Of a stretch of DNA of 64,000 bases, positions 29,248 to 32,200 are shown piece by piece. Location: the NCBI GenBank assembly GCA_951406725.2, contig OX597834.1:6014001-6078000 (forward strand), read 5' to 3'. The number at the start of each line of letters is the position of its first letter. Within the stretch, counting starts at the first letter, position 1. The DNA comes from Octopus vulgaris (taxonomy: Eukaryota). The position numbers were made by a program.

Positions 29248-32200
29248 AACAATAAAGGAACGGCCATAATAGGCCATTCACCCACTAGAAATAACAGCCA
29301 AAGCTTCAACCGCAAGTAAAAGTTAATTCAGTAAACCAGGAGAAAATTTAAAAAACATTTACCCTGTAATTTCTTATACGATATACCGTTTCATCTGCTG
29401 ATTAATGGTAAACTAACCTGATTAAATTAAATCAAGCCTATCTTCCACAGGCCCTCAGATTCTTCAGTAAGAAATAGCCCAAGACGGAACAGATATTTTC
29501 ACGAGGCATTTCCGACGTTGCCAAGTTAATATCTGACCTAAAATTTTCAAATCGTCGCACTCGCGCCAAATTTATCGGCAGCAAATAAATATAAGCCGTC
29601 GATTCCATTACGGAATTAACCAGAAAATTCATAATTAATCAATATAGGGTGGCAAAAAAAAATTTTGTAGAATTCTTTTGCCACCAGCGGCCTAGTAGGA
29701 AAAATTAAAATAGTCATAGACCATTTTTAAGTTCAACATCAACAATAAAGGAACGGCCATAATAGGCCATTCACCCACTAGAAATAACAGCCAAAGCTTC
29801 AACCGCAAATAAAAGTTAATTCAGTAAACCAGGAGAAAATTTAAAAAACATTTACCCTGTAATTTCTTATACGATATACCGTTTCATCTGCTGATTAATG
29901 GTAAACTAACCTGATTAAATTAAATCAAGCCAATCTTCCACAGGCCCTCAGATTCTTCAGTAAGAAATAGCCCAAGACGGAACAGATATTTTCACGAGGC
30001 ATTTCCGACGTTGCCAAGTTAATATCTGACCTAAAATTTTCAAATCGTCGCACTCGCGCCAAATTTATCGGCAGCAAATAAATATAAGCCATCGATTCCA
30101 TTACGGAATTAACCAGAAAATTCATAATTAATCAATATAGGGTGGCAAAAAAAATTTTGTAGAATTCTTTTGCCACCAGCGGCCTAGTAGGAAAAAATTA
30201 AAATAGTCATAGACCATTTTTAAGTTCAACATCAACAATAAAGGAACGGCCATAATAGGCCATTCACCCACTAGAAATAACAGCCAAAGCTTCAACCGCA
30301 AATAAAAGTTAATTCAGTAAACCAGGAGAAAATTTAAAAAACATTTACCCTGTAATTTCTTATACGATATACCGTTTCATCTGCTGATTAATGGTAAACT
30401 AACCTGATTAAATTAAATCAAGCCAATCTTCCACAGGCCCTCAGATTCTTCAGTAAGAAATAGCCCAAGACGGAACAGATATTTTCACGAGGCATTTCCG
30501 ACGTTGCCAAGTTAATATCTGACCTAAAATTTTCAAATCGTCGCACTCGCGCCAAATTTATCGGCAGCAAATAAATATAAGCCGTCGATTCCATTACGGA
30601 ATTAACCAGAAAATTCATAATTAATCAATATAGGGTGGCAAAAAAAATTTTGTAGAATTCTTTTGCCACCAGCGGCCTAGTAGGAAAAAATTAAAATAGT
30701 CATAGACCATTTTTAAGTTCAACATCAACAATAAAGGAACGGCCATAATAGGCCATTCACCCACTAGAAATAACAGCCAAAGCTTCAACCGCAAATAAAA
30801 GTTAATTCAGTAAACCAGGAGAAAATTTAAAAAACATTTACCCTGTAATTTCTTATACGATATACCGTTTCATCTGCTGATTAATGGTAAACTAACCTGA
30901 TTAAATTAAATCAAGCCAATCTTCCACAGGCCCTCAGATTCTTCAGTAAGAAATAGCCCAAGACGGAACAGATATAGCCTGTGGAAGATTGGCTTGATTT
31001 AATTTAATCAGGTTAGTTTACCATTAATCAGCAGATGAAACGGTATATCGTATAAGAAATTACAGGGTAAATGTTTTTTAAATTTTCTCCTGGTTTACTG
31101 AATTAACTTTTATTTGCGGTTGAAGCTTTGGCTGTTATTTCTAGTGGGTGAATGGCCTATTATGGCCGTTCCTTTATTGTTGATGTTGAACTTAAAAATG
31201 GTCTATGACTATTTTAATTTTTTCCTACTAGGCCGCTGGTGGCAAAAGAATTCTACAAAATTTTTTTTGCCACCCTATATTGATTAATTATGAATTTTCT
31301 GGTTAATTCCGTAATGGAATCGACGGCTTATATTTATTTGCTGCCGATAAATTTGAGCGAGTGCGACGATTTGAAAATTTTAGGTCAGATATTAACTTGG
31401 CAACGTCAGAAATGCCTCGTGAAAATATCTGTTCCGTCTTGGGCTATTTCTTACTGAAGAATCTGAGGGCCTGTGGAAGATTGGCTTGATTTAATTTAAT
31501 CAGGTTAGTTTACCATTAATCAGCAGATGAAACGGTATATCGTATAAGAAATTACAGGGTAAATGTTTTTTAAATTTTCTCCTGGTTTACTGAATTAACT
31601 TTTATTTGCGGTTGAAGCTTTGGCTGTTATTTCTAGTGGGTGAATGGCCTATTATGGCCGTTCCTTTATTGTTGATGTTGAACTTAAAAATGGTCTATGA
31701 CTATTTTAATTTTTTCCTACTAGGCCGCTGGTGGCAAAAGAATTCTACAAAATTTTTTTTTGCCACCCTATATTGATTAATTATGAATTTTCTGGTTAAT
31801 TCCGTAATGGAATCGACGGCTTATATTTATTTGCTGCCGATAAATTTGGCGCGAGTGCGACGATTTGAAAATTTTAGGTCAGATATTAACTTGGCAACGT
31901 CGGAAATGCCTCGTGAAAATATCTGTTCCGTCTTGGGCTATTTCTTACTGAAGAATCTGAGGGCCTGTGGAAGATTGGCTTGATTTAATTTAATCAGGTT
32001 AGTTTACCATTAATCAGCAGATGAAACGGTATATCGTATGAGAAATTACAGGGTAAATGTTTTTAAATTTTCTCCTGGTTTACTGAATTAACTTTTATTT
32101 GCGGTTGAAGCTTTGGCTGTTATTTCTAGTGGGTGAATGGCCTATTATGGCCGTTCCTTTATTGTTGATGTTGAACTTAAAAATGGTCTATGACTATTTT

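What the first reader, a model, noticed from the sequence alone, without database searches (positions are those of the whole stretch)
30900..31060. Head-to-head geometry implies rolling-circle reverse transcription primed from both ends of a (TA)n break
Seen: the ribozyme-sense strand points outward in both arms, so each arm's 3' end abuts (TA)n. The 5' ends meet at 30976 with a 45-bp unpaired spacer (30932-30976). The left arm ends ~132 nt and the right arm ~236 nt downstream of a cleavage site, both at AT microhomologies with the flank and neither at the ribozyme site. Inference: each arm is a first-strand cDNA extended from one 3'-OH of a cut microsatellite (twin priming). The permuted, more-than-unit-length copies point to a circular template rather than a cleaved linear monomer.
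Basis: inference. Interest (0 to 1): 0.82.

Follow-up and report, generated by a model that had tools for sequence, protein, structure and literature searches.

The report
Head-to-head ribozyme repeat arrays in (TA)n
A young 3-kb block of a 493-base repeat carrying a hammerhead-like ribozyme sits in a TA microsatellite as two arrays facing away from each other, the insertion pattern already known for Penelope-like retroelements, so it is a good new example and not a new kind of thing.

Summary
Two arrays of a 493-nt unit lie in inverted orientation: 29245-30975 (3.5 units) and 30977-32274 (2.6 units). There is a 45-nt offset at the centre, and both outer ends run directly into (TA)n.

Each unit carries a type-I hammerhead-like motif with a full catalytic core and three helices. 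The motif occurred in 0 of 200 shuffles, but no Rfam hammerhead model matches it. The motif-sense strand points outward in both arms.

The outer ends lie 132 and 236 nt past the predicted cleavage site. The inner ends lie at circle positions 374 and 418.

The geometry fits priming from both strands of one break. That is the published insertion signature of Penelope-like elements (PLEs): partial tandems, a head-to-head inverted 5'-truncated copy and (TA)n targets. A PLE protein cleaves and extends both strands in vitro.

A circular template is not shown, because an uncleaved multimeric transcript fits equally well. The breakpoint contiguity expected of L1-type twin priming is not met.

New here:
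- Both arms end at similar motifs just 3' of a stable hairpin.
- Two other hammerhead-like families in the window show the same (TA)n association, each with a head-to-head pair.

Long reads are needed to exclude an assembly chimera.

The parts
29222..29246 (.). Left flanking (TA)n tract; the left arm's 3' end merges into it with 2 nt (AT) of overlap
29245..30975 (-). Left arm: 1731 nt, or 3.5 units of 493 nt, with the hammerhead-like motif on the - strand. On the circle its 5' end is at position 374 (window 30975) and its 3' end at position 132 (window 29245).
30932..30976 (.). 45-nt unpaired centre: 44 nt that continue the left-arm unit (circle 374-417) plus orphan base 30976, which belongs to neither arm. 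This is the 5'-to-5' junction.
30977..32274 (+). Right arm: 1298 nt, or 2.6 units (492 and 494 nt plus partial units), with the hammerhead-like motif on the + strand. On the circle its 5' end is at position 418 (window 30977) and its 3' end at position 236 (window 32274).
32273..32335 (.). Right flanking (TA)n tracts (32273-32304 and 32321-32335); the right arm's 3' end merges into them with 2 nt (AT) of overlap
31446..31552 (+). One complete hammerhead-like motif, of six in the locus. Helix I is 8 bp (31446-53 with 31545-52). CUGAAGA starts at 31454. Helix II is closed by AUCUG/CAGAU around a 57-nt imperfect hairpin. GAAA starts at 31529. Helix III is ACG..CGU. H17 is A31544 and the predicted cut follows it. 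The other five motifs have CUGAAGA at 31948 (+) and at 30946, 30453, 29960 and 29467 (-).
29245..29264 (-). Terminal motif of the left arm (sense: GCCGTTCCTTTATTGTTGAT), lying 17 nt 3' of the hairpin GGCC..GGCC
32255..32274 (+). Terminal motif of the right arm. The array consensus here is GCCACCCTATATTGATTAAT; this copy starts GGC. It lies 14 nt 3' of the hairpin GGUGGCAAAA..UUUUGCCACC and resembles the left terminal motif.

Best explanation
The locus is a young, non-coding, hammerhead-bearing retroelement array, like a metazoan non-LTR retrozyme, in a cephalopod genome. It was inserted in one event into a (TA)n microsatellite by a Penelope-like RT-endonuclease supplied in trans.

Proposed steps:
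1. The enzyme cuts both strands of the AT-rich target.
2. Each 3'-OH primes a first-strand cDNA on retrozyme RNA. Copying starts in an AU-rich stretch just 3' of a stable hairpin. Two such sites exist per unit, at circle positions 132 and 236.
3. Each cDNA runs for more than one unit (3.5 and 2.6 units) on a template that is either a circle or an uncleaved multimer.
4. The two cDNA 3' ends are joined in the middle with one extra base. This gives two arrays with the RNA-sense strand pointing outward.

Shown: the anatomy, the polarity of the motif, the (TA)n flanks, the equal age of all monomers, and the similar end motifs.
Inferred: an RNA intermediate, the helper enzyme, priming from both strands, and a single event.
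Open: whether the template was circular or a linear multimer.
For: Anatomy and flanks.

Hammerhead-like motif:
- Under the strict descriptor (helix I >= 6 bp, helix II >= 4 bp, helix III >= 3 bp) all 6 hits in the window lie in the array, all on the outward strand. None of 200 dinucleotide shuffles of the 64-kb window gave any hit.
- The motif-sense circular RNA folds at -132.8 kcal/mol against -92.3 for the antisense. The z-score is -4.44 and 0 of 100 shuffles fold as well. The linear monomer gives z -4.65.

One age for both arms: there are 12 variable alignment columns. Eleven are private to one monomer, one is a shared homopolymer length, and 0 of 12 are mirrored between arms.

Outer ends:
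- They lie in similar motifs. The alignment score of 7 is reached by 0.7% of random position pairs and by 10 of 1158 pairs that also end in AT.
- Each lies 14-17 nt 3' of a predicted stable hairpin.

Other families in the window. Two further families with hammerhead-like cores behave alike. Family B lies at 35178-35340 and 53216-53387; family C at 57950-58299 and 5062-5234. Each has one head-to-head pair with the motif-sense strand outward. Counting the array too, 8 of 10 element ends lie within 25 nt of a (TA)n tract. That count is by eye against the tract list.

Control: of 32 blastn hits (the query's own copy included) of an abundant 124-nt repeat, 1 has (TA)n at an end, and that one is the query copy. 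Of 15 hits of a SINE-like tandem unit, 0 do.

Literature:
- PLE insertions are partial tandems, often with an inverted 5'-truncated copy at the 5' end, and (TA)n is a preferred target (PMC8557442, passages).
- Head-to-head is the most frequent inverted arrangement (PMC3846280, passages).
- A purified PLE protein cleaves and extends both strands, prefers AT-rich DNA, and starts reverse transcription at two defined internal RNA sites (PMC11167929, main text).
- Retrozymes have been proposed as non-autonomous PLE derivatives (PMC7229834, passages; bioRxiv 10.64898/2026.07.22.740005, abstract and section 14).
- Penelope elements and 235 hammerhead-1 loci are reported in a squid genome (PMC6962438, passages).
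Against: - No Rfam hammerhead model matches the motif: whole window at gathering score, 3.8 kb at E <= 10, or 131 nt at E <= 10.
- Helix II is unusually long, at 67 nt between CUGAAGA and GAAA, and it closes with A-U rather than the usual G-C. That G-C is the usual pair is recalled knowledge.
- My descriptor was written after I had seen the motif.
- No PLE RT or GIY-YIG domain lies in the window. I scanned 56 of the 74 stop-free frames of >= 100 aa. The 18 left out lie in simple repeats. The only RT found is an APE-type LINE.
- The two start sites are 104 nt apart, not the 30-40 nt of the PLE 'tail'.
- In the PLE assay the start site was not homologous to the target, whereas here both ends show 2-nt AT overlaps.
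- Naiad PLEs, the clade with the documented (TA)n bias, are said to be only old remnants in cephalopods (PMC8557442), while this array is young.
- The central 379 nt of each arm are 100% complementary while the outer parts differ. If the 11 arm-to-arm differences were spread evenly over the 1298 mirrored nt, about 3.2 would fall in the central 379 nt, so finding none has a Poisson chance of about 0.04 (my arithmetic). A chimeric read or palindrome gene conversion would produce this pattern too.
- There is only one locus of this family, and no reads.
Confidence: 0.5

Rival explanations
1. A one-orientation array inserted, or grew, in the (TA)n first. Part of it was later duplicated in inverted orientation at the DNA level: fold-back of a broken or stalled strand, then a second switch back into the flanking (TA)n.
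For: - A 45-nt offset at the centre of an otherwise perfect palindrome is typical of fold-back inversions (recalled knowledge).
- The central 379 nt per arm are 100% complementary.
- The right arm is shorter than the left, so it could be a copy of it.
Against: - 0 of 12 variable columns are mirrored, so the duplication would have had to follow array birth almost at once.
- There is no microhomology at the central junction, only one orphan base.
- The right arm's outer end lies in a motif like that of the left arm's end. A random second switch does not predict this.
- Two unrelated hammerhead-like families in the same window also form head-to-head pairs at (TA)n.
Confidence: 0.15
2. The inversion is an assembly artefact. 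A fold-back chimeric long read joined two separate loci, or two parts of one locus, that both carry the array. The central junction does not exist in the animal.
For: - Long near-perfect palindromes with short spacers are a known product of chimeric long reads and are unstable in vivo (recalled knowledge).
- The central 2 x 379 nt are 100% complementary, and all arm-specific variants lie further out.
- 5 of the 12 variable columns are single-base indels, and 4 of those 5 lie in T runs, the typical long-read error.
- PLE-type tandem/inverted structures are stated to cause assembly problems (PMC8557442).
Against: - Each arm joins its own unique flank through its own (TA)n junction, at different positions of the unit. 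Two oppositely oriented arrays therefore exist in any case.
- A simple fold-back read would mirror the left flank as well.
- The same geometry is seen in two smaller, older pairs, 89% and about 81-91% identical to their partner or reference copy, that no read chimera explains.
Confidence: 0.12
3. Two independent insertions of the same family landed in the same (TA)n tract in opposite orientations, the second right at the 5' end of the first.
For: - (TA)n is a hot target for these elements: 8 of 10 ends.
- The bases ATATA at the junction (30972-30976) could be a remnant of target (TA)n.
- PLE proteins are reported to nick their own copies as well (PMC11167929).
Against: - Divergence within and between the arms is the same, and no fixed difference separates them.
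- The family has no other copy in 64 kb, so two hits within 5 nt of each other are unlikely.
- Four of the five junction bases are explained by the unit itself.
Confidence: 0.08
4. The locus is a Foldback-type DNA transposon. Its long terminal inverted repeats are built of tandem 493-nt subrepeats, and it inserted at a TA target.
For: - It has long inverted arms made of tandem repeats and of unequal length.
- The two outer termini are similar in inverted orientation.
- The window holds other palindromic, MITE-like elements.
- The definition of Foldback elements is recalled, not read.
Against: - The termini are similar but not identical, and they lie at different positions of the unit.
- There is no transposase and no visible target-site duplication.
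- Every unit carries a hammerhead-like motif, and folding is strongly strand-asymmetric (-132.8 against -92.3 kcal/mol), which points to an RNA-level life cycle.
- Family C has a single-arm copy, at 5062-5234. That fits 5' truncation, not terminal inverted repeats.
Confidence: 0.07

Closest known systems
Penelope-like element (PLE) insertion architecture: partial tandems (pseudo-LTRs) with an adjacent inverted 5'-truncated copy, at AT-rich or (TA)n targets (PMC8557442, PMC3846280, PMC11167929)
   Same: - Tandem copies longer than one unit.
- Head-to-head inverted copy.
- (TA)n on both sides.
- A hammerhead motif in the repeated part.
- Two alternative 3' ends, so that one side carries an extension.
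   Different: - No RT/GIY-YIG ORF in the element or in the window.
- The repeated unit is the whole element.
- The two ends are 104 nt apart, not 30-40 nt.
- The hammerhead has a real helix III and a very long helix II; it is not the minimal PLE form.
- Similarity to a PLE pseudo-LTR could not be tested.
Metazoan non-LTR retrozymes (Cervera & de la Pena 2020, PMC7229834; Li et al. 2026 preprint)
   Same: - Short non-coding tandem repeats, each with a type-I hammerhead-like motif.
- Low GC (35.3%).
- A predicted highly self-paired monomer RNA.
- The proposed life cycle: a circRNA is copied into tandem cDNA, with PLEs as candidate helpers.
   Different: - The unit of 493 nt is larger than the published 150-450 nt.
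- Rfam models do not recognise the motif.
- The term 'inverted' has 0 occurrences in PMC7229834. It occurs once in the preprint, in the reference list.
- No held paper contains both 'retrozyme' and 'head-to-head'.
- RNA expression is unknown here.
L1 twin priming (5'-inverted L1 insertions; recalled, not read)
   Same: - Two cDNAs primed from the two strands of one target.
- Sense strands outward, with a 5'-to-5' junction.
   Different: - The breakpoints are not contiguous on the template (132 against 418; 236 against 374).
- There is no poly(A).
- The target is (TA)n and not an L1 endonuclease site.
- Both arms are multimeric.
Foldback DNA transposons (recalled, not read)
   Same: Long inverted arms composed of tandem subrepeats, of unequal length.
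   Different: - The termini lie at different positions of the unit.
- A ribozyme-like motif and strand-asymmetric RNA folding are present.
- There is no transposase and no visible target-site duplication.

Membership tests
Hammerhead ribozyme, type I | Catalytic core CUGANGA ... GAAA, an A15.1-U16.1 pair, and H17 not G (consensus recalled from established knowledge) | tested here: met
   The core is CUGAAGA, GAAA, A-U and H17 = A in 6 of 6 complete units.
Hammerhead ribozyme, type I | Three helices around the core, with helix I open | tested here: met
   Helix I is 8 bp, helix II has 5 closing bp on a long hairpin, and helix III is 3-4 bp. None of 200 shuffles of the window gave such a motif. 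The centroid fold keeps helix II and part of helix I.
Hammerhead ribozyme, type I | Match to the curated covariance models (Rfam hammerhead families) | tested here: not met
   No hammerhead hit at gathering score, nor at E <= 10 on 3.8 kb or on 131 nt.
Hammerhead ribozyme, type I | G10.1-C11.1 pair closing a short helix II (recalled as the usual form) | tested here: not met
   The closing pair is A-U, and 67 nt lie between CUGAAGA and GAAA.
Hammerhead ribozyme, type I | Covariation in the helices, and self-cleavage | not testable with these tools
   The copies are almost identical. The one helix I change, A>G in the last right-arm unit, keeps a G-U pair. No other genome could be searched.
Metazoan non-LTR retrozyme | Tandem repeats of about 150-450 bp, each with a type-I hammerhead | tested here: inconclusive
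   The tandem unit is 493 nt, just above the published range. The motif is present in each complete unit, but Rfam does not recognise it (PMC7229834).
Metazoan non-LTR retrozyme | Low GC; no LTR, PBS, PPT or ORF | tested here: met
   GC is 35.3%. The longest stop-free stretch on a trimer is 68 aa in sense and 36 aa in antisense. ARAGORN finds no tRNA-like part. PBS and PPT were not searched for specifically.
Metazoan non-LTR retrozyme | Expressed as an abundant, highly self-paired circRNA | not testable with these tools
   Only the fold could be tested: circular MFE -132.8 kcal/mol, z -4.44, 59% of bases paired.
PLE-type insertion | Partial tandem plus an adjacent inverted 5'-truncated copy (head-to-head) | tested here: met
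   definition from PMC8557442 and PMC3846280.
PLE-type insertion | AT-rich or (TA)n target | tested here: met
   Both outer ends lie in (TA)n, which covers 1.76% of the window.
PLE-type insertion | Optional 30-40-bp 'tail' at one end, from two adjacent RT start sites | tested here: not met
   The two ends differ by 104 nt (circle 132 and 236). They do lie in similar motifs.
PLE-type insertion | PLE RT and GIY-YIG endonuclease, or similarity of the unit to a PLE pseudo-LTR | tested here: not met
   No such domain was found in 56 of 74 long frames scanned. The 18 left out lie in simple repeats. Similarity to a pseudo-LTR is not testable, because no cephalopod PLE sequence was on hand.
L1-type twin priming | The inversion breakpoints are contiguous on the template (small duplication or deletion only) | tested here: not met
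   132 against 418, and 236 against 374, modulo 493. The defining feature is recalled.
Foldback DNA transposon | Identical termini and a target-site duplication | tested here: not met
   The termini lie at different positions of the unit and are only similar. A target-site duplication cannot be seen within (TA)n.

The most novel reading that the evidence does not exclude
One retrotransposition event created a 3-kb inverted satellite from nothing. A 493-nt hammerhead circRNA was copied by rolling-circle reverse transcription from both 3'-OH ends of a cut (TA)n. Each cDNA started at one of two hairpin-plus-AU-motif sites in the circle. The locus would then be a near-pristine snapshot of satellite birth by circRNA retrotransposition, and structural proof that retrozymes use the two-strand priming of Penelope-like enzymes.
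Probability: 0.2. Interest if true: 0.75.

Novelty: new member of a known kind. Interest (0 to 1): 0.45.

Why it matters
How animal retrozymes move, and how their tandem arrays arise, is still argued from indirect evidence: co-occurrence with PLEs, and similarity to pseudo-LTRs in frogs.

This is a young array, differing from its own consensus at only about 0.4% of positions. It still shows both insertion junctions, the head-to-head PLE signature and a (TA)n target. That makes it the kind of locus that ties a retrozyme structurally to PLE-type integration.

The equal age of all monomers suggests that the whole array was made at once, not grown by unequal crossing-over.

The paired end motifs give a concrete, testable candidate for the reverse-transcription start signal.

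It does not change the framework, because every element of the model is already in print.

Tried and rejected
- Rfam: no hammerhead or other ribozyme family was found in five searches. The hairpin 'microRNA' matches at the palindrome centre and in (TA)n are artefacts of inverted repeats.
- ARAGORN: no tRNA-like part anywhere in the window.
- Other copies of the unit: none in the window.
- PLE genes nearby: none. The only RT is an APE-type LINE at 37428-43162.
- Mirrored variants as a test for inverted duplication of an older array: 0 of 12.
- L1-type breakpoint contiguity: not met.
- (TA)n as a general landing place for all repeats: rejected by the control (1 of 32 and 0 of 15 blastn hits). 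Those hits are blastn ends, not curated element ends.
- Head-to-head pairs as a mark of hammerhead-like elements only: rejected. The palindromes at 20482-20886 and 55021-55283 have no such core (no match to the pattern) and no (TA)n at their ends.
- My first motif scan missed the array because of a bug in loop handling. It was corrected.
- Not seen: Supplementary Figure S9 of PMC7229834 (the published model drawing) and the supplements of the bioRxiv preprint. They may show structures that bear on the novelty claim.
- Structure and complex prediction were not relevant and were not used.
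Full report
WHAT IS THERE

The window has no N. Its only reverse transcriptase is an APE-type LINE at 37428-43162. The closest named relatives of that LINE are from Argonauta hians and Acanthosepion pharaonis, so the window comes from a cephalopod.

Between 29245 and 32274 lie two tandem arrays of one 493-nt unit in opposite orientation:
- 29245-30975: 3.5 copies, 99% matches.
- 30977-32274: 2.6 copies, 98% matches.

The innermost 379 nt of each arm are 100% complementary, with 45 nt between them. That spacer is 44 nt of left-arm unit plus one base, 30976, that fits neither arm.

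Both outer ends run straight into (TA)n tracts (29222-29246; 32273-32304 and 32321-32335). Such tracts cover only 1.76% of the window. No other copy of the unit is present in the 64 kb.

THE RIBOZYME CLAIM

Rfam finds no hammerhead at gathering score, nor at E <= 10 on 3.8 kb or on 131 nt.

By eye and by a descriptor of my own, every complete unit has these parts:
- the core CUGAAGA ... GAAA;
- an A-U pair and A at the cleavage position;
- an 8-bp helix I;
- a helix II closed by AUCUG/CAGAU around a long imperfect hairpin;
- a 3-4-bp helix III.

With thresholds looser than the observed values, all 6 hits in the window are in the array, all on one polarity. None of 200 dinucleotide shuffles of the window gave a hit.

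The same polarity folds far better than its complement as a circle (-132.8 against -92.3 kcal/mol). The z-score is -4.44 and 0 of 100 shuffles fold as well.

I take the motif as a probable but unproven hammerhead. Three things count against it: helix II is atypical (67 nt, A-U closing pair), the curated models reject it, and I wrote the descriptor after seeing it.

GEOMETRY ON THE CIRCLE

Position 1 is the first base after the predicted cut.
- Left arm: 5' end at 374, 3' end at 132.
- Right arm: 5' end at 418, 3' end at 236.

The motif-sense strand points outward in both arms. Seven predicted cleavage sites are read through. Each outer end shares 2 nt (AT) with the microsatellite, and the chance of that at both ends is about 3.6%.

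AGE AND HISTORY

Aligning all nine monomer pieces gives 12 variable columns, 7 substitutions and 5 single-base indels. Eleven are private to one monomer. The one shared column is a T-run length. None is mirrored between the arms.

Differences within an arm are as frequent as differences between arms, so all monomers of both arms are of one age. This fits a single burst of synthesis better than slow growth by unequal exchange followed by an inversion.

The three innermost pieces carry no variant at all. If the 13 monomer-variant instances were spread evenly over about 3030 nt, about 3 would fall in the innermost 690 nt, so finding none has a Poisson chance of about 0.05 (my arithmetic). That could reflect gene conversion in a palindrome, or a chimeric read.

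The two outer ends are not arbitrary AT sites. The last 16-20 nt of the arms are alike: GCCGTTCCTTTATTG-TTGAT against GCCA-CCCTATATTGATTAAT. The alignment score is reached by 0.7% of random position pairs and by 10 of 1158 pairs that also end in AT.

Each end lies 14-17 nt 3' of a stable predicted hairpin, in a largely unpaired AU-rich stretch. This is post hoc and rests on two ends only. It does suggest specified start sites for reverse transcription, not dispersed ones.

CONTEXT IN THE SAME WINDOW

Two further short families carry hammerhead-like cores, again unrecognised by Rfam.

Family B:
- One copy at 35178-35340 lies between two (TA)n tracts.
- At 53216-53387, again between two (TA)n tracts, an inverted 5'-truncated copy sits head-to-head with a direct copy.

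Family C:
- A head-to-head pair at 57950-58299 is 89% identical between arms. Both arms end at the same terminus, and the right arm ends on (TA)n.
- A single-arm copy lies at 5062-5234, with (TA)n at its 3' side.

Counting the array too, 8 of 10 element ends touch (TA)n. That count is by eye against the tract list.

As a control, an abundant 124-nt repeat has (TA)n at an end in 1 of 32 blastn hits, and that one is the query's own copy. A SINE-like tandem unit has it in 0 of 15 hits.

Palindromes as such are not special to these families. Two MITE-like ones, at 20482-20886 and 55021-55283, have neither a core nor (TA)n. An AT-rich one at 45639-45983 does sit in (TA)n.

COMPARISON WITH WHAT IS KNOWN

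The combination of partial tandem, adjacent inverted 5'-truncated copy (head-to-head) and (TA)n target is the published architecture of Penelope-like element insertions (PMC8557442 and PMC3846280, passages).

A purified PLE protein from the green anole:
- cleaves and extends both strands of an AT-rich target;
- starts reverse transcription at two defined internal RNA sites;
- uses mostly unprocessed RNA (PMC11167929, main text).

Animal retrozymes are proposed to be copied from circRNA into tandem cDNA by a target-primed RT, with PLEs as the strong candidate (PMC7229834, passages). They have also been argued to derive from PLE pseudo-LTRs (bioRxiv 10.64898/2026.07.22.740005, abstract and section 14).

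Cephalopods carry Penelope elements and Rfam hammerhead-1 loci (PMC6962438, passages). Naiad PLEs there are said to be old remnants (PMC8557442).

I found no description of head-to-head retrozyme arrays:
- 0 papers hold both 'retrozyme' and 'head-to-head'.
- 'Inverted' has 0 occurrences in PMC7229834. It occurs once in the preprint, in the reference list.
- 'Twin priming' and 'Penelope' occur together in 3 papers, none of which, judging from the search listing only, is about PLE mechanism.

WHERE THE INTERPRETATION FALLS SHORT

- A circle is not required. A multimeric uncleaved transcript gives the same read-through of cleavage sites, and nothing in the variants separates the two.
- L1-type twin priming predicts contiguous breakpoints, which are absent.
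- The 104-nt distance between the two ends does not match the 30-40-nt PLE tail.
- No helper element is in the window.

VERDICT

Best reading (about 0.5): a single insertion of a retrozyme-like element by a PLE-type enzyme priming on both strands of a cut (TA)n, on a circular or multimeric template.

Rivals:
- DNA-level fold-back duplication: 0.15.
- Assembly chimera: 0.12.
- Two independent insertions: 0.08.
- Foldback-type DNA transposon: 0.07.

It is a new member of a known kind, of moderate interest.

Noticed in passing
window 35178-35340 and 53216-53387: Family B is a roughly 160-nt element with a compact hammerhead-like core (CUGAUGA, a 3-bp helix II with loop GGAA, GAAA, and a short helix III; 35202-35231). 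One copy lies between two (TA)n tracts. At 53216-53387, also between two (TA)n tracts, an inverted 5'-truncated copy lies head-to-head with a direct copy whose core has decayed. Two copies share the same 3' terminus. Rfam does not recognise the core.
   Followed up: partly
window 57950-58299 and 5062-5234: Family C is a head-to-head pair of about 170-nt arms, 89% identical, both ending at the same terminus; the right arm abuts (TA)n. A third, single-arm copy (74% identical) has (TA)n at its 3' side. The core is CUGAAGA-A-helix-GAAAC-GU-U. Helix II differs between the copies but stays paired (GAG/CUC, GAGC/GCUU, GAGC/GCUC).
   Followed up: partly
window 29245-29264 and 32255-32274: The two outer ends of the array lie in similar 16-20-nt motifs, each 14-17 nt 3' of a stable predicted hairpin. 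They are possible start signals for reverse transcription.
   Followed up: yes
window 30287-31544: The three innermost monomer pieces carry none of the 13 monomer-variant instances; every variant lies further out. By my Poisson arithmetic the chance is about 0.05. Possible causes are palindrome gene conversion or a chimeric read.
   Followed up: partly
window 37428-43162 (- strand): A frameshifted LINE with APE endonuclease, RVT_1 and zf-RVT domains. Its best named relatives are in Argonauta hians and Acanthosepion pharaonis.
   Followed up: partly
window 20482-20886 and 55021-55283: Two palindromic MITE-like elements (arms of 195 and 110 nt, 90% and 98% complementary) share an internal motif. 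They have no hammerhead-like core and no (TA)n flanks.
   Followed up: no
window 45639-45983: An AT-rich palindrome (135-nt arms, 92% complementary, 75-nt spacer) flanked by TA-rich or (TA)n sequence on both sides. Its nature is unknown.
   Followed up: no
window 34953-35076 and 31 other places; 10607-11379 and 21552-22202: A 124-nt repeat gives 32 blastn hits in the window (the query's own copy included), and only that query copy sits inside (TA)n. SINE-like units also occur as short tandem arrays of about 184 and 217 nt.
   Followed up: partly
window 53743-53821 (+) and 34669-34746 (-): Two further loose-descriptor hammerhead hits (helices of 6/4/2 and 4/5/2 bp). The shuffles give a mean of 0.045 such hits per window, but these two were not examined further.
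   Followed up: no
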